Shown here: in pieces, positions 1-14,968 of the stretch
How the letters are laid out: each line of letters begins with the position of its first letter
Numbering within the stretch: position 1 is the first letter of the stretch
Virus record (IMG/VR): IMGVR_UViG_2778261646_000019
Direction: 5' to 3' (one strand)
Origin: a virus
Taxonomy: Duplodnaviria; Heunggongvirae; Uroviricota; Caudoviricetes
Length of the DNA stretch: 20,417 nucleotides
Notes under the pieces: model-generated
Database searches by the model: none
The model's input: only the letters and a program-made list of their open reading frames with translations
What the model was told of the DNA's origin: nothing
Position numbers and translations under genes: made by a program

Positions 1-72
1 GCTCTGACTTTCCAGAACCATACGGACTGCCCGTTGACGGACTTCGGGGGAAAAACGAGTATTTTTAGTCAT
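1..72 (-). CDS. IS3-family transposase OrfA, N-terminal 24 codons (partial, cut by window edge)
   Basis: Minus-strand translation from the ATG at 72..70 gives MTKNTRFSPEVRQRAVRMVLESQS, matching the characteristic N-terminus of IS629/IS1203-type OrfA (MTKNTRFSPEVRQRAVRMVLESQ...). Not in the ORF track because it is truncated. Confidence 0.7.
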   Translation of the reverse strand, partial: MTKNTRFSPEVRQRAVRMVLESQS

Positions 73-126
73 CCTGTTTACCTCTTTCTCAGGAAGTTTA
101 GTCTCCAGGATTCCCGGGGCGGTTCA
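1..126 (-). mobile_element. IS3-family insertion sequence, terminal part (IS629/IS1203-like); continues beyond the left window edge
   Basis: Reverse complement of 73..126 reads TGAACCGCCCCGGGAATCCTGGAGACTAAACTTCCTGAGAAAGAGGTAAACAGG, an IS3-family terminal inverted repeat (TGAACCGCCCCGGG...) followed by an RBS and the ATG at 72..70. Element end placed at 126. Family assignment is from memory of IS629-like ends, not a search. Confidence 0.75.
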
Positions 127-175
127 TATTACTGATCCATTTTTTGCTTTTTATCTAAAATGGCGATAAAGGTTC

Positions 176-194
176 TGGCTGCCAAACTGGCAGC
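176..194. other. Perfect 7-bp stem / 5-nt loop hairpin (GGCTGCCaaactGGCAGCC) just beyond the portal gene 3' end; possible terminator or packaging-region structure
   Basis: Inverted repeat read directly; no clean U-tract on either strand, so terminator function is uncertain. Confidence 0.3.
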
Positions 195-201
195 CTTAAA
201 G

Positions 202-1236
202 CTAATTTGAATGAAGTTTATATTCTTCGAACTGTATCACTTTTTCTTTTAACCAAACATTTAACTCTTCAAATCTTTTTTGCAATGGTATTAGTTCATT
301 GCGTACAAATACATTACTTGCCTTCTCCACATCCCCAAACCCCCCAACATTATTTGGCATTATCCCCATCATCTGTGGCGGCACGCGGTGTGCTGCCATC
401 ATGTCATCGCGACTAACATTTTTGATATTCAGAAATTCATCCTTCGCTGCGACTTCTGACAACGGGATAATCTGAAGTCCGTCTTTTTTACCATTAGGCG
501 AGTACATAAACAGATTGCGGAAGTTACCCGGACCTTTGGCGCTTTTCATTGCGTTGCGGAGGTTGTTCACATCCTCCTGGTTCTGCGCGGCATCGGTCAT
601 GTACATGATGAAGCCGGCATGACTGCCGTTAATGTAATACTTGCGGCGGAACAGCGTGGCGGACTCGTTGAGCAAAGCGGATGGGATGGCAGAAAGATAG
701 CCGGGCAGGCCGTAGATCTCCTGGTTGATGTCCGGTTCCATCAGCTGAAAAATGCTGCCTTTCGTGAACTGATACGGCTGGGTTGTCATACCGTATTGCA
801 CAAACCAGTAGGTATCCAGGTCTAACCCGCGTCGGGTGTATTTTGCCAGCGCAGGCTCAAGGGCGATAACTTCACCGAATCGGTTCGTGCGTTTCTCCAG
901 GTAGGCGTTACCAAATACCAGATAGTCCTGTACAAAACGCGAAAAAGCCTGTTGGCTGAGCAGCGGATGAGGGATATAGGTACTGGTCAGAATGTTGCAC
1001 TTTACTGCAATCGGGGAACTGTGATGCACGGCAGCCCGGAAGGTGCGCGCCAGTCCGTCAAAACTTACGGGTGGCTCGTACCAACACTCCATCTGTACGC
1101 ATTCCACATAGTCCAGCAGTTCGCGGCGGTCCAGAACAGGAACGGGATCACCGAAGCTGAATGCTTCGGCTGAAGTCTGGCTTTTATGCTGGATCTGTTT
1201 CGTCGACGCAGCGCGGTTCTTCTTACTCTTTCCCAT
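202..1236 (-). CDS. Q: Portal protein (P2 gpQ-like)
   Basis: ORF 202..1239; the first track codon is TTG, and the ATG at 1236..1234 gives 344 aa, the same length as P2 Q. Position and orientation (leftward, next to P) match P2. Stop codon overlaps the P stop region. Confidence 0.9.
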   Translation of the reverse strand: MGKSKKNRAASTKQIQHKSQTSAEAFSFGDPVPVLDRRELLDYVECVQMECWYEPPVSFDGLARTFRAAVHHSSPIAVKCNILTSTYIPHPLLSQQAFSRFVQDYLVFGNAYLEKRTNRFGEVIALEPALAKYTRRGLDLDTYWFVQYGMTTQPYQFTKGSIFQLMEPDINQEIYGLPGYLSAIPSALLNESATLFRRKYYINGSHAGFIMYMTDAAQNQEDVNNLRNAMKSAKGPGNFRNLFMYSPNGKKDGLQIIPLSEVAAKDEFLNIKNVSRDDMMAAHRVPPQMMGIMPNNVGGFGDVEKASNVFVRNELIPLQKRFEELNVWLKEKVIQFEEYKLHSN

Positions 1237-3002
1237 CAAAAAATCTCCACAATATTGCTGGTATTGGCGGACTCGCCCTGCAGCGGTTCGTTAAACAGTG
1301 CGTGCATTGTTGCCCAGGCCAGATCGGCATGGCTGGCTTCTTCGCTGCGGCTGGCTTCATAGGTCGGGCGGTTGCCACTGGCAGTGGTAGCGCGACGGAT
1401 TGCCATAAATGACTGCGCAATGTCGGTGTGCCCGGCGTCAAACTCCAGACGGCGGTGGCTGATAATGTCGTAGGCCTTGAGTACCAGGGCGTTTTTAACA
1501 TTGGGGTTGTAGACAAACTCCCGGACGGCAGGAAAGAACGCTTTCACGTTCTCATAAACCCCGTGACCAACGCCGGTTGAGTCGATACCGATATAGGTCA
1601 CGTTGTACTGTTCGGTCAGTTTTTTGATGGCGTCAGCCTGGGCGCGGAAGTCCATCCCGCGCCACTGGTGACGCTCAAGAATGCGGAACTTACCACCAGG
1701 CACGGCTGGCGGTGCCACCACCACGCATCCGGCGCTGTCGCCGTTTTGCGTACCTTTTGCCGGGTCATAACCGATCCACACTTCGCGCCAGCCAAACGGG
1801 CGCAGAGCCAGTGCATGAAAGTCGGTCCAGACTTCCCAGCTGTCCACCATGCACGCCTGCAGCTCGCTGAGCGGAAATACGGACGCGAGATCGTCCACAA
1901 ACTCGCACATCAGCAGGTTCTGGTATTCGTCTGGGCTGTACTCCATGCGCAACTGGTCAAGGTCGAACAGGTTACAGCCGCCGCGCACCGCATCTTCCAC
2001 GGTGACTATCTGGCGGTATTGCCCGTCTGCGCACAGCAGGCCGGGGGCCAGATTGCTGTGGGACAGGTCGATGTCCACCTTGTCGGCCTTGTTGCGCCCA
2101 CGGTTGAACAGCGCACCGGACCAGAACGGATAAGCACTGTGTGTCAGGCTGGATGGCGTGGAAAAATAGGTTTGTCGCCATTTTTTGTGAATAGCCATAC
2201 CGGAAGCCACTTTGCGCAGCTCCTGGAATTTCGGTATCCAGAAATATTCATCCAGATACAGGTTGCCGTGATAACTCTGGGCCGTGCGGGCATTGGTGCC
2301 GAGGAAGTAAAGCGTGGCCCCGTTAGGAAGCACCATCGGATCGCCTTTCAACTCCACCCCCACTTCTTTGGCGAAGTCGATGATGTACTGCTTAAAGACG
2401 TGGGCCTGTGCCTTGCTGGCGGAAAGGAAAATCTGGTTACGTCCGGTAAGCAGGGCGTCAATCAGGGCTTCACGGGCAAAGTAAAAGGTCGCGCCGATCT
2501 GGCGTGACTTCAGCAGGTTGCGGATGCGGTTGGTTTTTCCGGCTTCCCACCAGTGGCGCTGGTAGTTGAACATGGAGGAATGGAAGATTTCTTCCAGCTT
2601 CTCAATCTGCTCATCGGTGAAAACATTCTTTTCCGGCTGACGGCGTGGGCCTTTATTGCGGTTGGCGACGTTAGGGTTTAAGTCGGCTTCGTTGCCGCCA
2701 TTGTTAAACTTGCCGATCCGCGCGTGGCGCTCCGACTGGCGCGCCAGCAGGTCAATCTCTTTGAAATCTTTCCCTTCTTTGTGCTCCTTCATGATGAGCT
2801 GGCAGTAGCGTGCGGCGGTGGTGAGCTGCATCTGATCCAGCGGCCCATAGTCACCCCACTTGTCGCGTTTTTTCCAGCTGTGAACGGTTGCAACTTTCTC
2901 GCCCAGCATTTCAGCAATGCGGGCTACGCGGTATCCCTGAAAGTACAGCAGCATGGCCTGCCGACGGGGATCGAGATCTGCGGGTGTCAGTGTGGTGTTC
3001 AT
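1236..3002 (-). CDS. P: Terminase large subunit (ATPase/nuclease, P2 gpP-like)
   Basis: 588-aa ORF with ATG start at 3002..3000, leftward and adjacent to Q, divergent from O as in P2. Size matches P2 P (about 590 aa). Confidence 0.9.
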   Translation of the reverse strand: MNTTLTPADLDPRRQAMLLYFQGYRVARIAEMLGEKVATVHSWKKRDKWGDYGPLDQMQLTTAARYCQLIMKEHKEGKDFKEIDLLARQSERHARIGKFNNGGNEADLNPNVANRNKGPRRQPEKNVFTDEQIEKLEEIFHSSMFNYQRHWWEAGKTNRIRNLLKSRQIGATFYFAREALIDALLTGRNQIFLSASKAQAHVFKQYIIDFAKEVGVELKGDPMVLPNGATLYFLGTNARTAQSYHGNLYLDEYFWIPKFQELRKVASGMAIHKKWRQTYFSTPSSLTHSAYPFWSGALFNRGRNKADKVDIDLSHSNLAPGLLCADGQYRQIVTVEDAVRGGCNLFDLDQLRMEYSPDEYQNLLMCEFVDDLASVFPLSELQACMVDSWEVWTDFHALALRPFGWREVWIGYDPAKGTQNGDSAGCVVVAPPAVPGGKFRILERHQWRGMDFRAQADAIKKLTEQYNVTYIGIDSTGVGHGVYENVKAFFPAVREFVYNPNVKNALVLKAYDIISHRRLEFDAGHTDIAQSFMAIRRATTASGNRPTYEASRSEEASHADLAWATMHALFNEPLQGESANTSNIVEIF

Positions 3003-8119: not shown

Positions 8120-8513
8120 AGCGGTGCCTTATGTCCGCAATAACCCGGACAAACTGCATCTGTTTGTGGATAACGGTTCGCTGGTTGCCACGGGGGCCAG
8201 CTCCATGTCATGGGAGTACCGCTACACCCTGAACGTGGTGATTGAGGATTTCAGCGGCGACCAGAATCTGCTGATGGCCCCGGTTTTGCTGTGGCTGCGT
8301 GATAACCAGCCCGATGCCATCAATAACCCGGCGTTACGGGAAAAGCTATTCACCTTTGAGGTGGATATTCTGCGCAACGATGTCTGTGATATCAGCCTCA
8401 ACCTGCAACTGACGGAGCGTGTGCTGGTCAGCACTGACGGCAGTGTGTCGAGCGTTGAAGCTATAGCGGAACCTGATGAACCTGAAGAAATGTGGACGGT
8501 GAAACGTGGCTGA
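8082..8513 (+). CDS. R: Tail completion protein (P2 gpR-like)
   Basis: Track ORF 8061..8513 begins at a TTG; the GTG at 8082 has an AGGAG RBS 7 nt upstream and is the likely start. The sequence (KPQSLRHAL...FVDNGS...YTLNVV...LTERVLVS) matches my recollection of P2 R. Confidence 0.8.
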   Translation: MNKPQSLRHALNKAVPYVRNNPDKLHLFVDNGSLVATGASSMSWEYRYTLNVVIEDFSGDQNLLMAPVLLWLRDNQPDAINNPALREKLFTFEVDILRNDVCDISLNLQLTERVLVSTDGSVSSVEAIAEPDEPEEMWTVKRG

Positions 8514-10850: not shown

Positions 10851-11448
10851 TCTGCTGCCACCGGGTTCAACACCACTGGAGTGCCGACTGGCGCAAACCT
10901 GCAGCGGGATTTCTGATCTGCAGGTGCCGCTTCGTGATTTGTGGAATCCGGCAACCTGTCCGGTCAGTTTCCTGCCTTATCTCGCCTGGGCGTTCTCTGT
11001 GGATCGCTGGGACGAGGGCTGGACAGAAAGCGTCAAGCGCCAGGTGGTGAAGGATGCTTTTTATATTCATCAGCATAAAGGGACCACCAGTGCCGTGCGG
11101 CGGGTGGTGGAGCCGTTCGGATTCCTGATCCGCATTATTGAGTGGTGGCAGACCGGAGAAACACCGGGCACGTTTCGCCTGGATATCGGCGTGCAGGACC
11201 AGGGCATCACTGAAGATACCTATCTGGAACTTGAGCGACTGATAAGCGATGCCAAACCATGTAGCCGCCACATGATCGGCATGTCCATCAATCTGCAGAC
11301 CAGCGGCCCGCATTGGGTGGGAGCCGCCAGCTATCTTGGCGAAGAAATCACGATCTATCCGTATATCAACGAAACGATTATTTCCGGTGGCACCGCGCAT
11401 GAAGGCGGGGCGGTCCATGTTATTGACACAATGAGAGTGAATCCATGA
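10843..11448 (+). CDS. I: Baseplate/tail fibre attachment protein (P2 gpI-like)
   Basis: 201 aa; between J and H, with overlapping start and stop codons on both sides. Confidence 0.8.
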   Translation: MNSLLPPGSTPLECRLAQTCSGISDLQVPLRDLWNPATCPVSFLPYLAWAFSVDRWDEGWTESVKRQVVKDAFYIHQHKGTTSAVRRVVEPFGFLIRIIEWWQTGETPGTFRLDIGVQDQGITEDTYLELERLISDAKPCSRHMIGMSINLQTSGPHWVGAASYLGEEITIYPYINETIISGGTAHEGGAVHVIDTMRVNP

Positions 11449-12524
11449 GCACAAAATTTTATACCCTGCTGACGGATATTGGCGCGGCGAAACTTGCCAG
11501 CGCCGCCGCGCTCGGTGTGCCGCTAAAAATTACCCATATGGCGGTGGGCGATGGCGGTGGAGTATTGCCAACGCCGGACGCAAAGCAGACGGCACTGGTA
11601 AATGAGAAACGCCGGGCTGCGCTGAATATGCTTTATATCGACCCGCAGAACAGCAGCCAGATTATTGCCGAACAGGTGATCCCTGAAAACGAGGGCGGTT
11701 GGTGGATACGTGAAGTGGGCCTGTTTGATGAGTCAGGTGCATTGATTGCCGTGGGCAACTGCCCGGAAAGCTATAAGCCGCAACTGGCTGAAGGTAGCGG
11801 GCGCACTCAGACCGTGCGCATGGTGCTGATTACCAGCAGCACGGACAATATCACCCTGAAAATCGACCCTGCTGTAGTGCTGGCAACCCGCAAGTATGTG
11901 GATGACAAGGCACTGGAGCTGAAGGTGTACGCGGATGATCAGATGGCAAAACATCTTGCCGCACCGGACCCGCATTCACAGTACGCGCCAAAAGCCAGCC
12001 CGACATTTACCGGAACCCCCAAAGCGCCAACGCCAGCGGCGGGGAATAATACCACGCAGGTTGCGACCACTGCGTTTGTACAGGCGGCACTGACGGCCCT
12101 TATTAATGGTGCGCCAGCCACGCTGGACACGCTGAAAGAAATAGCCGCAGCCATTAACAATGATCCGAATTTCAGTACCACCATTAACAATGCGCTGGCA
12201 CTAAAAGCACCGTTGTCGAGTCCGGCACTCACCGGAACGCCAACAGCCCCCACGGCGGCGCAGTCGGTCAACAATACACAGATTGCCACTACGGCTTTTG
12301 TGAAATCGGCGATTGCAGGAATGGTGGGTTCTGCACCTGCTGCACTGGATACACTGAACGAACTGGCGGCGGCACTGGGGAATGATCCGAACTTTGCCAC
12401 GACAATGCTTAATGCGCTGGCAGGTAAACAACCGCTGGACAATACGCTTACCAATTTGAGTGGAAAGGATGTAGCTGGTCTTCTCCCAAACCAACGTTTA
12501 AGAAAATGCAGAGGTAACAGCTAA
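11445..12524 (+). CDS. H: Tail fibre protein, conserved N-terminal part only (P2 gpH-like); truncated, ends 18 bp after a hix-like crossover site
   Basis: 359 aa against about 669 aa for P2 H. The N-terminal half matches P2 H (MAVGDGGG, ESYKP.LAEGSGR, LNELAAALGNDPNFATTM.NALAGKQP), but the ORF stops after ...LLPNQRLRKCRGNS; the receptor-binding C-terminus is absent. Confidence 0.8.
   Translation: MSTKFYTLLTDIGAAKLASAAALGVPLKITHMAVGDGGGVLPTPDAKQTALVNEKRRAALNMLYIDPQNSSQIIAEQVIPENEGGWWIREVGLFDESGALIAVGNCPESYKPQLAEGSGRTQTVRMVLITSSTDNITLKIDPAVVLATRKYVDDKALELKVYADDQMAKHLAAPDPHSQYAPKASPTFTGTPKAPTPAAGNNTTQVATTAFVQAALTALINGAPATLDTLKEIAAAINNDPNFSTTINNALALKAPLSSPALTGTPTAPTAAQSVNNTQIATTAFVKSAIAGMVGSAPAALDTLNELAAALGNDPNFATTMLNALAGKQPLDNTLTNLSGKDVAGLLPNQRLRKCRGNS
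12000..12438 (+). repeat. Tandem duplication of about 220 bp (two ~73-aa repeat units) inside the tail fibre gene
   Basis: Repeat units beginning ...PTFTGTPKAPTPAAGNNTTQVATTAFV... and ...PALTGTPTAPTAAQSVNNTQIATTAFV..., both ending in ...NDPNF.TT..NALA.K.PL; DNA similarity is visible (aatgatccgaatttcagtacc... near 12162 versus aatgatccgaactttgccacg... near 12382). Confidence 0.7.
12481..12506. other. Candidate invertase crossover site (hix/gix/cix-like, 26 bp) at the 3' end of H
   Basis: TTCTCCCAAACCAACGTTTAAGAAAA matches my recalled hixL sequence (TTCTTGAAAACCAAGGTTTTTGATAA) at 19 of 26 positions, including the AAACC-AA core; it sits 50-80 bp upstream of the invertase gene. No second copy was seen in the window. 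Confidence 0.5.
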
Positions 12525-12561
12525 CTGGCATCATCTCCGGTTTTTATTCAGGGGGATGATC

Positions 12562-13128
12562 ATGCTTATTGGCTATGTACGCGTGTCAACAAATGACCAG
12601 AACACCGATTTGCAACGTAATGCACTGAACTGCGCGGGATGTGAGCAGATTTTTGAGGACAAAATCAGTGGCACTAAGTCCGACAGACCGGGGCTGAAAA
12701 AACTACTCAGGACACTATCGGCAGGAGACACGCTGGTTGTCTGGAAGCTGGACAGGTTGGGGCGCAGTATGCGGCATCTTGTTACGCTGATAGAAGAGTT
12801 GCGCCAGCGTGGTGTGAATTTCAGAAGCCTGACTGACAGTATTGATACCAGTACCCCAATGGGCCGTTTCTTTTTTCATGTCATGGGTGCCCTGGCTGAA
12901 ATGGAACGCGAACTGATAGTTGAACGTACCAGGGCAGGGCTGGCTGCAGCTCGTGCCAAAGGCAGAGTAGGTGGACGCCGTCCTAAGTTGACCACCGAAC
13001 AGTGGGCACAGATTGGGCGTTTACTCGAGGCCGGAGAATCAAGACAGCGTATTGCACTGATTTTTGATGTAGGCGTTTCTACCATTTATAGAAAATTTCC
13101 GGCAAATAAGATCAATGAATCCCCCTGA
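12562..13128 (+). CDS. Serine DNA invertase, Hin/Gin/Pin/Cin family
   Basis: Near-identical over long stretches to my recollection of Hin/Pin (MLIGYVRVSTNDQNTDLQRNAL...GDTLVVWKLDRLGRSM...FRSLTDSIDT...MGRFFFHVMGALAEMERELIVERT.AGLAAARAKGR.GGR), with the catalytic Ser in VRVSTNDQ and a C-terminal HTH. The ATG at 12562 follows a GGGGGA RBS (the track ORF starts two codons earlier). Confidence 0.9.
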   Translation: MLIGYVRVSTNDQNTDLQRNALNCAGCEQIFEDKISGTKSDRPGLKKLLRTLSAGDTLVVWKLDRLGRSMRHLVTLIEELRQRGVNFRSLTDSIDTSTPMGRFFFHVMGALAEMERELIVERTRAGLAAARAKGRVGGRRPKLTTEQWAQIGRLLEAGESRQRIALIFDVGVSTIYRKFPANKINESP

Positions 13129-13176
13129 ATCAGCATTATGTTGATTATCCCTGCAAGCAGACAAATACCGTTATTT

Positions 13177-13194
13177 TGTGTGAATAACGACACA
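13177..13194. promoter_or_regulatory. Ogr/Delta-type late promoter site (TGT-N12-ACA) for the FI operon
   Basis: TGTgtgaataacgacACA read directly, 85 bp upstream of the FI start, in the invertase-FI intergenic region. Confidence 0.6.
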
Positions 13195-13270
13195 ACTGCG
13201 CTTAGCTGTTTGTCAGGCACAATCACTTCAACATAGGGCGAAGCCTAATCCAATCAGGAGGTTCGCCACT

Positions 13271-14443
13271 ATGGCTCAGGATTACCACCACGGGGTGCGC
13301 GTTGTTGAAGTCAACGAAGGTACCCGATCTATTACCACGGTGAGCACCGCCATCGTGGGTATGGTCTGCACGGGCGATGATGCCGATGCAAAAATGTTTC
13401 CTCTTAATAAACCCGTGCTGATCACTGATGTGCTGACTGCCAGCGGTAAAGCGGGTGAGTCAGGTACTCTGGCCCGTTCGCTGGATGCCATCGCTGACCA
13501 GGCAAAACCCGTGACCATTGTTGTGCGTGTGCCGCAGGGTGAAACGGAAGACGAAACCACGACCAATATCATCGGCGCAGTGACTGCTGAAGGTAAAAAA
13601 ACAGGTATGAAAGCCCTGTTATCTGCCCAGTCACAGCTCGGCGTTAAACCGCGCATTCTCGGCGTGCCAGGCCACGACACCAAGGCGGTAGCTACTGAGT
13701 TGCTGAGCGTGGCGCAAAGCCTGCGTGGATTTGCTTACCTGTCAGCGTATGGCTGCAAGACAGTGCAGGAGGCGATCACTTACCGCGAAAACTTCAGCCA
13801 GCGCGAAGGGATGCTGATCTGGCCTGACTTTACTGGCTGGGACACGGTGCTGAATGCCGAAGCAACGGCATATGCCACCGCCCGTGCGCTTGGTCTGCGC
13901 GCCAAAATTGACGAGCAGACCGGATGGCACAAAAGCCTGTCCAACGTGGGCGTGAACGGTGTCACCGGAATTTCTGCAGATGTGTTCTGGGATCTGCAGG
14001 ACCCGGCAACCGATGCAGGTCTGCTGAACCAGAACGACGTCACCACGCTTGTGCGTAAAGACGGTTTCCGCTTCTGGGGTTCCCGCTGCCTGAGTGATGA
14101 CCCGCTCTTTGCCTTCGAAAACTACACCCGCACGGCGCAGGTGCTGATGGACACGATGGCAGAAGCACACATGTGGGCGGTGGATAAACCGCTTAACCCG
14201 TCGCTGGCCCGCGACATTATCGAAGGTATCCGCGCCAAAATGCGCAGCCTGGTCAGTCAGGGCTATCTCATTGGTGGTGATTGCTGGCTGGATGAGTCGG
14301 TGAACGACAAAGACACGCTGAAAGCCGGAAAACTCACCATCGACTACGACTACACGCCAGTGCCGCCACTTGAAAACCTGATGCTGCGTCAGCGCATCAC
14401 CGATCAGTACCTGGTTAATTTCGCCAGCCAGGTCAGCGCGTAA
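13271..14443 (+). CDS. FI: Contractile tail sheath protein (P2 gpFI-like)
   Basis: 390 aa (P2 FI is about 396 aa); AGGAGG RBS; followed by the tube gene. Confidence 0.9.
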
Positions 14444-14452
14444 GGGGACAAC

Positions 14453-14968
14453 ATGGCTTTACCACGCAAATTAAAACACCTGAACCTGGTTAACGACGGG
14501 AACAACTGGCAGGGGATCGTTGAGTCGCTGACGCTGCCGAAATTTACCCGCAAATATGAGAAGTATCGCGGCGGCGGAATGCCGGGTGCGGTGGATGTGG
14601 ATCTGGGGCTTGATGACAGTGCGCTGGATACAGAATTTTCCATTGGTGGTACTGAATTGCTGCTGTTTAAACAGATGGGTAAAGCCACGGTGGATGGCAT
14701 CCAGCTGCGCTTTACCGGCTCTATTCAGCGTGACGATACCGGGGAAGTGCAGGCCGTGGAGCTTGTCGTGCGTGGACGTCACAAAGAAGTGGATTCCGGC
14801 GAGTGGAAGACGGGCGAAAGCAACACCACCAAAGTGACCAGTACCAACAGCTACGCGAAGCTGACCATCAATGGTGAGGTGCTCTATGAAGTGGACCTTA
14901 TCAACATGGTGGAAATTGTGGACGGTGTGGACCTGATGGAAGCGCACCGCAACGCCCTCGGCCTCTGA
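14453..14968 (+). CDS. FII: Tail tube protein (P2 gpFII-like)
   Basis: 171 aa (P2 FII is 172 aa); synteny. Confidence 0.9.
   Translation: MALPRKLKHLNLVNDGNNWQGIVESLTLPKFTRKYEKYRGGGMPGAVDVDLGLDDSALDTEFSIGGTELLLFKQMGKATVDGIQLRFTGSIQRDDTGEVQAVELVVRGRHKEVDSGEWKTGESNTTKVTSTNSYAKLTINGEVLYEVDLINMVEIVDGVDLMEAHRNALGL

What the first reader, a model, noticed from the sequence alone, without database searches (positions are those of the whole stretch)
1..201. IS3-family element inserted 75 bp beyond the portal gene, where the cos/packaging region is expected
The left edge carries an IS3-family terminal inverted repeat and the orfA start, oriented away from the prophage. In P2 the portal gene is the leftmost virion gene with cos just beyond it. 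The 75 bp between the IS end and the Q stop is AT-rich and contains a hairpin but nothing resembling a GC-rich cohesive end. The IS may therefore have separated or disrupted cos and other packaging cis elements, which together with the truncated tail fibre points to a defective prophage.
Basis: partly seen in the sequence, partly recalled or inferred. Interest (0 to 1): 0.5.

Follow-up and report, generated by a model that had tools for sequence, protein, structure and literature searches.

The report
IS629 deletion scar beside prophage portal gene
The left edge of the window is the end of a common E. coli jumping gene (IS629) that, in every sequenced relative, marks where about 8-12 kb of a P2-like prophage, including its DNA-packaging site, was deleted; this is ordinary prophage decay.

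Summary
Window 1-126 (minus strand) is the left end of a 1310-bp IS3-family element of the IS629 type: a 25-bp inverted repeat at 102-126 and the orfA start at 72. It sits 75 bp beyond the portal (Q) stop.

- In this phage lineage cos is not next to Q. In 10 intact relatives the cos core (GGCGTGGCGGGGATACGAG) lies about 1.39 kb beyond the Q stop, behind a 416-aa candidate defence ATPase gene (PADLOC PDC-S59).
- The IS sits in the last 14 codons of that cargo gene. Window 127-169 is the gene's 3' remnant, and 177-195 is a hairpin shared with Q.
- All 13 distinct assemblies examined that carry this exact junction lack a target-site duplication. What follows the IS is a truncated CII gene or a stub of the integrase gene, giving three nested left endpoints against one fixed right endpoint.
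- So cos, replication gene A and, in some strains, the immunity region were deleted (7,758 bp or more). They were not merely separated from Q.
- No cos-like core occurs in the window.
- The tail-fibre gene has also lost its invertible distal segment.

Verdict: a defective P2-like prophage remnant of the O7:K1 (IAI39/CE10) E. coli lineage. This kind of structure is already known and of low interest.

The parts
1..126 (-). Left (IRL/orfA) end of an IS629-type IS3-family insertion sequence, cut by the window edge. The full element is 1310 bp in relatives.
   Evidence: 100% identical to complete copies at the same junction in 5 complete genomes. 99.5% identical to elements annotated IS629.
102..126 (-). 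25-bp terminal inverted repeat (IRL), TGAACCGCCCCGGGAATCCTGGAGA.
   Evidence: 23/25 match to the opposite end of the full element.
1..72 (-). First 24 codons of transposase orfA (MTKNTRFSPEVRQRAVRMVLESQS).
   Evidence: Translation. The full orfA/orfB with programmed frameshift is annotated in relatives.
127..169 (+). 3' remnant (13 codons plus stop, ITDPFFAFYLKWR*) of a 416-aa AAA-type cargo gene. This is a PADLOC PDC-S59 candidate defence gene of the P2 gpA-gpQ hotspot. The rest of the gene is missing.
   Evidence: Identical to the end of the intact gene in Ecol_224, UMNF18 and 64EVA. PDC-S59 E = 2.4e-31 and AAA_22 for the intact protein.
177..195 (.). Hairpin GGCTGCCA-AAC-TGGCAGCC between the convergent cargo gene and Q. 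It is terminator-like and sits where P2 tQ and 186 tW are annotated.
   Evidence: Fold of window 127-215: -20.8 kcal/mol, z = -2.8. The simple terminator scan did not call it because there is no T-run. P2 and 186 have annotated terminators directly after Q/W.
202..1236 (-). Portal gene Q, intact (344 aa).
   Evidence: The exact protein is found in both intact and IS-bearing relatives. Annotated as phage portal protein.
1236..3002 (-). Terminase large subunit gene P, intact (588 aa).
   Evidence: The exact protein is found in many relatives. In IAI39 it is interrupted by IS26.
11445..12524 (+). Truncated tail-fibre gene H (359 aa). Only the constant N-terminal part remains, fused at the invertase crossover site (12481-12492).
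   Evidence: Phage_tail_fib N-terminal domain only. A 1.85-kb invertible segment is missing relative to N32.
12556..13128 (+). Serine DNA invertase (Resolvase + HTH_7), intact.
   Evidence: Pfam E = 2.3e-53.

Best explanation
The window starts inside an IS629-type insertion sequence that marks a deletion junction in a P2-like (Peduoviridae, Cartapus/186-related) prophage of the E. coli O7:K1 IAI39/CE10 lineage.

The intact phage has this order: int - CI - apl-like - CII - fil ... dam - gpA - DinI - small ORFs - cos - 416-aa PDC-S59-like ATPase gene - (hairpin) - Q - P and the late genes.

An IS629 copy came to lie 43 nt before the stop codon of the ATPase gene. DNA on the IRR (orfB-end) side of the IS, the side outside the window, was then lost. 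The loss ran first up to the middle of CII (7,758 bp, including cos, gpA and the replication origin region). In sublineages it ran further, into the integrase gene. The junction on the Q side stayed fixed throughout.

Shown: the IS identity, the fixed junction, the three left endpoints, the absence of a target-site duplication, the absence of cos, and the position of cos in intact relatives.

Inferred:
- That the window's own strain, whose left flank is not in the window, is in one of these deleted states.
- The mechanism of deletion. It was either one-ended, transposase-dependent deletion adjacent to the IS, as described for IS629, or homologous recombination between two directly repeated IS629 copies. 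These genomes hold 27 to more than 40 copies.

Consequence: the remnant keeps an almost complete late-gene block but cannot replicate, be cut at cos or be packaged. In the window's strain it also cannot make a functional tail fibre.
For: - The junction (window 1-400) is 100% identical in 5 complete genomes and in 8 further assemblies.
- The IS is 1310 bp, identical in the five complete genomes, with terminal inverted repeats, and is of the IS629 type.
- There is no target-site duplication. The right flank is always TAT.... The left flanks are ...TTATTAAC (in CII)...CGTAAAG (327 nt of int left) and ...GGTCACC (400 nt of int left), each contiguous at 100% with the CE10 sequence.
- The intact counterpart 64EVA matches the CE10 left flank at 99.3% up to the junction and matches window 127-186 exactly. 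The gap between the two points is 7,758 bp and contains the cos core.
- The cos core GGCGTGGCGGGGATACGAG and its flanks align with P2 and 186 cos. The core is present in all 10 intact relatives examined, at about 1.39 kb from the Q stop in each of the 9 prophages, and absent (up to 4 mismatches) from the window and from the 12 IS-bearing loci scanned for it.
- The reciprocal junction of a simple insertion is found in 0 of 5,426 complete genomes. The 5' part of the cargo gene occurs only in the 7 uninterrupted genomes.
- IS629-associated deletions adjacent to the IS, from a few nucleotides to more than 40 kb, are described in the literature (PMC9943667; bioRxiv 10.1101/2023.06.07.543989, both citing Kusumoto 2011).
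Against: - The window ends inside the IS, and its source strain is not among the genomes retrieved. It has private SNPs at 1932 and 3751 and a unique tail-fibre deletion. Its own left flank is therefore unobserved.
- The ancestral simple insertion has not been seen, so the order of events (insertion at the cargo site first, or at CII first) is not established.
- No microhomology or other signature at the endpoints distinguishes the two deletion mechanisms.
- Whether this lineage has the IS-excision enhancer was not tested.
Confidence: 0.85

Rival explanations
1. Simple insertion in the window's own strain. IS629 merely interrupts the last 14 codons of the cargo gene. The rest of that gene, cos and the whole early region lie intact beyond the IS, so only the tail-fibre defect cripples the prophage.
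For: The window stops inside the IS, so its left flank is unseen. The strain is distinct from all those retrieved. Such a state may have existed as the ancestor of the deleted forms, though only if the IS inserted at the cargo site first.
Against: All 13 distinct assemblies examined with this exact junction are deleted forms. None of 5,426 complete genomes has the reciprocal junction. The window differs from the deleted forms by only 2-5 SNPs in 12.5 kb.
Confidence: 0.08
2. Mechanistic rival within the deletion model. Each deletion arose by RecA-dependent recombination between this IS629 and a second, directly oriented copy that had inserted in CII or int. It did not arise by one-ended transposase-dependent deletion.
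For: These genomes carry 27 to more than 40 matches to the IS end, against a median of 3 per genome. The resulting structure would be identical: one IS, no target-site duplication.
Against: It needs a separate same-orientation insertion within a few kb for each of the three endpoints. No genome with two flanking copies was seen. Deletions adjacent to IS629 are documented experimentally.
Confidence: 0.4
3. The missing half of the prophage (cargo 5' part, cos, gpA ...) was not lost. It was moved elsewhere in the chromosome by an inversion between IS629 copies.
For: IS-rich genomes often carry such inversions. AR_0013 and AF57 show an inversion inside this same prophage.
Against: The 80 nt of cargo gene upstream of the junction occur only in the 7 uninterrupted genomes and nowhere in the five IS-bearing complete genomes. 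The left flanks are prophage CII/int DNA in its normal position next to attL and yneK.
Confidence: 0.02
4. A functional cos lies to the right of position 126 (in the 75-bp gap or elsewhere in the window), and the prophage can still be packaged.
For: None found. The only point in its favour is that cos sequences diverge between P2-like phages.
Against: No match with up to 4 mismatches to three cos cores, and none to the conserved 13-mer GGCG[AT]GGCGGGGA, anywhere in the window. The gap is fully accounted for as a gene remnant plus a hairpin identical to intact relatives, whose cos is 1.39 kb further on.
Confidence: 0.01

Closest known systems
IS629 (IS3 family; also described as IS1203v), the abundant IS of E. 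coli O157:H7
   Same: 1310 bp, 25-bp inverted repeats starting TG, orfA/orfB with a frameshift, and 99.5% nucleotide identity to annotated IS629 copies. It is known to cause gene inactivation and deletions adjacent to the IS.
   Different: Here it is in an O7:K1 extraintestinal lineage rather than EHEC. This copy has no target-site duplication because it is a deletion junction. Whether IEE is involved is unknown.
The cos-Q arrangement of phages P2 and 186
   Same: Homologous cos core and flanks. Q/W is followed directly by a hairpin terminator.
   Different: In P2 and 186 the cos core is 186 and 195 bp from the Q/W stop with no gene between them. Here a 1.25-kb cargo gene intervenes and cos is about 1.39 kb away.
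Escherichia phage Cartapus (Peduoviridae, Elveevirus)
   Same: Identical 19-nt cos core. A cargo gene lies between cos and the portal gene. The Q-P region is 93-96% identical at the nucleotide level.
   Different: Its cargo gene is a DUF4145 gene, not the PDC-S59-like ATPase. Cartapus is an intact phage.
The P2-like defence hotspot between gpA and gpQ next to cos (Rousset et al. 2022, PMC9122126)
   Same: The IS lies in exactly this hypervariable locus. The interrupted gene matches a PADLOC candidate defence family.
   Different: Only 13 codons of the cargo gene survive here. Nothing functional remains of the hotspot.

Membership tests
IS3 family / IS629 | Terminal inverted repeats of about 20-40 bp ending 5'-TG...CA-3' | tested here: met
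   25-bp inverted repeats, 23/25 identical, starting TGAACC. The window holds one of them at 102-126.
IS3 family / IS629 | orfA (HTH) and orfB (DDE rve) joined by a -1 programmed frameshift; length about 1.2-1.5 kb | tested here: met
   Met in the full copies at the identical junction: 1310 bp, annotated programmed frameshift, HTH_Tnp_1 + rve. The window itself holds only 24 orfA codons.
IS3 family / IS629 | Near-identity to the reference element (isoform level) | tested here: met
   99.5% over 1310 bp to elements annotated 'IS3 family IS629' in GenBank Stx-phage records. ISfinder itself was not available.
IS3 family / IS629 | 3-4 bp target-site duplication flanking a simple insertion | tested here: not met
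   Left flanks end AAC, AAG or ACC, while the right flank starts TAT, in all 12 copies checked. This indicates rearrangement at this copy, not non-membership.
P2-type cos site | 19-nt G+C-rich cohesive-end core GGCG(A/T)GGCGGGGA... with conserved flanks | tested here: not met
   Absent from the window and from the 12 IS-bearing loci scanned for it. Present in all 10 intact relatives, at about 1.39 kb from Q in the 9 prophages.
P2-like (Peduoviridae) prophage | Late-gene block Q-P divergent from O-N-M-L, followed by lysis, baseplate, tail-fibre, sheath/tube, tape-measure and D genes | tested here: met
   ORF layout of the window matches the annotated and Pfam-typed genes of relatives at over 99.9% identity.
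P2-like (Peduoviridae) prophage | Complete early region (int, repressor, CII/cox, replication gene A) allowing induction and replication | tested here: not met
   In relatives with this junction, gpA is always missing, and CII, CI and int are partly or wholly missing. This is not directly testable for the window's own strain.
Rho-independent terminator (tQ-like) | G+C-rich hairpin followed by a T-run | tested here: inconclusive
   A stable 8-bp hairpin is present, but there is no T-run and the scan did not call it. Its position corresponds to P2 tQ and 186 tW.
PADLOC PDC-S59 candidate defence protein | Full-length match to the profile | tested here: not met
   The intact homologue matches (E = 2.4e-31, residues 7-415). 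The window keeps only the last 13 codons.

The most novel reading that the evidence does not exclude
The cos-less, replication-less late-gene block is not simply decaying. It is kept in the O7:K1/IAI39 lineage because it does something, for example as a helper for P4-like satellites that cannot compete for packaging, or as a tailocin-like particle source. On this reading the nested IS629-anchored deletions would be a natural record of one-ended IS629 deletion activity outside EHEC.
Probability: 0.04. Interest if true: 0.4.

Novelty: already known. Interest (0 to 1): 0.12.

Why it matters
Its value is mainly for annotation.
- The region should be called a defective P2-like prophage remnant with an IS629 deletion junction, not a phage with a displaced cos.
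- It also shows that in this Peduoviridae subgroup cos is separated from the portal gene by a hotspot cargo gene. 'cos is next to Q' is therefore not a safe assumption when judging whether a prophage is intact.
- The three nested endpoints give a small natural example of stepwise IS-anchored prophage erosion.

Tried and rejected
- Searching with the P2 cos 19-mer at up to 3 mismatches found nothing, even in intact relatives. The lineage core differs at 4-5 positions and was found only through the Cartapus annotation and alignment.
- I tried to assign the window to one of the three deletion states by SNPs. The window has only private differences (1932, 3751), and the one shared polymorphism (2374) is uninformative. 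That script also produced a large, useless misaligned output for draft assemblies with indels.
- I tried to find the source strain through its terminase protein. The private SNP is synonymous, so the look-up returned the common protein. It did yield the best intact counterpart, 64EVA.
- The first multi-locus BLAST mixed all loci because one file held them all. It was redone.
- The simple terminator scan does not call the hairpin.
- Ooka et al. 2009 (PMC2765283) is not held. IS629 deletion behaviour is therefore cited through PMC9943667 and bioRxiv 10.1101/2023.06.07.543989.
- The endpoints show no microhomology that would decide the mechanism.
- Presence of the IS-excision enhancer in this lineage was not tested, because the tools give no practical way to query specific genomes for it.

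Full report
**1. What is at 1-201**

Read on the minus strand, window 126-1 is TGAACCGCCCCGGGAATCCTGGAGACTAAAC...AGGTAAACAGG-ATG. The ATG is at 72-70 and opens MTKNTRFSPEVRQRAVRMVLESQS.

A megablast of window 1-400 against 5,426 complete E. coli genomes finds the first 126 bases in 3,706 genomes. The whole 400 bases, at 100% identity, occur in only five: IAI39, CE10 (O7:K1), AR_0013, N32 and AF57. In those five:
- The element is 1310 bp and identical in all of them.
- It has 25-bp inverted repeats, 23/25 matching.
- It is annotated as an IS3-family transposase with a programmed frameshift.
- It is 99.5% identical to elements that GenBank Stx-phage records annotate as 'IS3 family IS629'.

The IS end is at 126, the Q stop codon is at 202-204, and the gap is 75 bp with 37% G+C. 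The gap contains a hairpin at 177-195; the 89-nt stretch 127-215 that holds it folds at -20.8 kcal/mol, z = -2.8.

**2. What the 75 bp are**

Seven complete genomes carry the same DNA uninterrupted (H6-H12). Further assemblies were found through the exact portal and terminase proteins.

In these genomes window 127-169 is the end of a 416-aa gene that converges on Q (...HITDPFFAFYLKWR*). The hairpin lies between the two stop codons, where P2 and 186 have their annotated tQ/tW terminators.

The 416-aa protein has a P-loop AAA domain (AAA_22). It matches the PADLOC candidate defence family PDC-S59 at E = 2.4e-31. This locus is the hypervariable gpA-gpQ hotspot of P2-like phages described by Rousset et al. 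2022 (PMC9122126).

**3. Where cos is**

- In P2 the cos core is 186 bp from the Q stop. In 186 it is 195 bp from the W stop.
- The P2 19-mer finds nothing within 3 mismatches, even in intact relatives of this prophage.
- Phage Cartapus is 93-96% identical across Q-P and annotates a putative cos. The same sequence, core GGCGTGGCGGGGATACGAG, is present in the intact prophages.
- That sequence aligns with P2 and 186 cos over the core and both flanks.
- In all nine intact prophages examined it lies about 1.39 kb beyond the Q stop, on the far side of the cargo gene.
- It is absent, allowing up to 4 mismatches, from the window and from the 12 IS-bearing loci scanned for it. The conserved 13-mer GGCG[AT]GGCGGGGA is absent too.

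**4. What lies beyond the IS**

The window stops inside the IS, so this was read from relatives with the identical junction. Three states exist:
- **State A** (CE10, N32 and four other assemblies): the IS abuts ...TTATTAAC inside CII. Upstream of it int, a ClbS-like gene, ISEc53, CI and the apl-like gene are kept.
- **State B** (AR_0013, AF57 and at least three further assemblies: L011/L025, L019 and L031): the IS abuts ...CGTAAAG, leaving 327 nt of the int 3' end.
- **State C** (IAI39): the IS abuts ...GGTCACC, leaving 400 nt of int.

The right flank is always TATTACTG..., and no state has a target-site duplication. The flanks of states B and C are 100% contiguous with the CE10 sequence up to their junctions.

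Strain 64EVA carries an intact counterpart with the same CI protein. It matches the CE10 left flank at 99.3% up to the junction and matches window 127-186 exactly. The segment between the two points is 7,758 bp. It holds the rest of CII, fil, DUF5347, DUF2732, traR, dam, replication gene A, dinI, small ORFs, cos and most of the cargo gene.

A synthetic query for the reciprocal junction of a simple insertion (cargo 5' part joined to the IRR) is matched by none of the 5,426 genomes. The cargo 5' part occurs only in the seven uninterrupted genomes. In the relatives, therefore, the DNA is really gone, not inverted to another place.

**5. Mechanism**

One IS end is fixed and the other has three nested endpoints. 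This is the pattern of IS-anchored deletion.

For IS629, deletions adjacent to the IS from a few nucleotides to more than 40 kb have been reported. They are attributed to aberrant strand transfer or breaks during transposition, enhanced by IEE (PMC9943667, and bioRxiv 10.1101/2023.06.07.543989 summarising Kusumoto 2011).

The alternative is recombination between two direct copies. That is plausible because these chromosomes carry 27 to more than 40 matches to the IS end, against a median of 3. The endpoints show no signature that decides between the two. I regard the deletion itself as shown for the relatives and inferred for the window's strain. The molecular route is unresolved.

**6. State of the rest of the prophage**

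- In the window all late genes from Q to D are open (99.9% or higher identity to relatives), with one exception.
- The exception is H. It is fused at the invertase crossover site (12481-12492) to the invertase-proximal site, with loss of the 1.85-kb invertible segment that carries the H C-termini and the tail-fibre assembly genes.
- Sister strains have different secondary lesions. IAI39 has IS26 in P and in H. AR_0013 and AF57 have an inversion that splits the sheath gene. One assembly has a group II intron inside this IS copy. Another has an IS4 insertion and has lost CI.
- Independent lesions in different strains argue for ongoing decay rather than domestication.

**7. Verdict**

The IS and the defective prophage are real. 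However, cos was never expected within or just beyond these 75 bp in this lineage. The IS hit a hotspot cargo gene, and cos was lost through a deletion of 7.8 kb or more, not by separation.
- IS629, P2-like remnants and the gpA-gpQ hotspot are all described, and the IAI39 and CE10 genomes are public. Novelty: already known. Interest: low.
- The main residual uncertainty, about 10%, is the unseen left flank of the window's own strain.

Noticed in passing
window 12481-12524, with 12556-13128: The tail-fibre gene H is joined directly to the invertase-proximal crossover site (TTCTCCCAAACCAACGTTTAAGAAAA). Relative to strain N32 the 1.85-kb invertible segment, with the alternative H C-termini and tail-fibre assembly genes, is precisely missing. 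This looks like a site-specific deletion by the adjacent, intact serine invertase.
   Followed up: partly
L007 and L009 32488-36085 (window equivalent 12481-14229): In AR_0013 and AF57 the invertase, the invertible segment and the 5' part of the sheath gene are inverted together. One endpoint is inside the sheath gene (window 14223-14229) and splits it. This may be an aberrant invertase event at a pseudo-site.
   Followed up: partly
L001 21909-22736 and 33321-34241: IAI39 carries IS26 in the terminase gene P (828 extra bp after about window 1900) and a second IS26 at the distal end of H. Neither is present in the window.
   Followed up: partly
L019 about 11100-14700: In one assembly (GCA_964049245.1) the IS629 copy at this very junction is itself interrupted by a group II intron (RVT_1 + GIIM ORF). 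The IS then spans 3580 bp.
   Followed up: no
L006 28404-28484 (window 8323-8403): CE10 has an 81-bp tandem duplication in tail gene R, giving 170 aa instead of 143 aa.
   Followed up: no
L002 18799-20049; L022 12834-14084: The cargo gene between cos and Q in intact relatives is a 416-aa P-loop ATPase that matches the PADLOC candidate PDC-S59 (E = 2.4e-31). This places a defence candidate on the Q side of cos, unlike old/tin of P2.
   Followed up: partly
L006 15533-17290: State-A genomes carry a ClbS/DfsB-family gene and an ISEc53 (ISL3) element between int and the repressor gene. The intact counterpart 64EVA lacks both. Assembly L018 additionally has an IS4 insertion and has lost CI.
   Followed up: no
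window 1932 and 3751: Two single-base differences are private to the window, with all 12 relatives compared carrying the other base. The one at 1932 is synonymous in P. The source strain is not among the complete RefSeq E. coli genomes.
   Followed up: partly
statistics (whole genomes): The five genomes with this junction carry 27 to more than 40 matches to the IS629 end per chromosome, against a median of 3 in E. coli. This indicates an IS629 expansion in the lineage.
   Followed up: no
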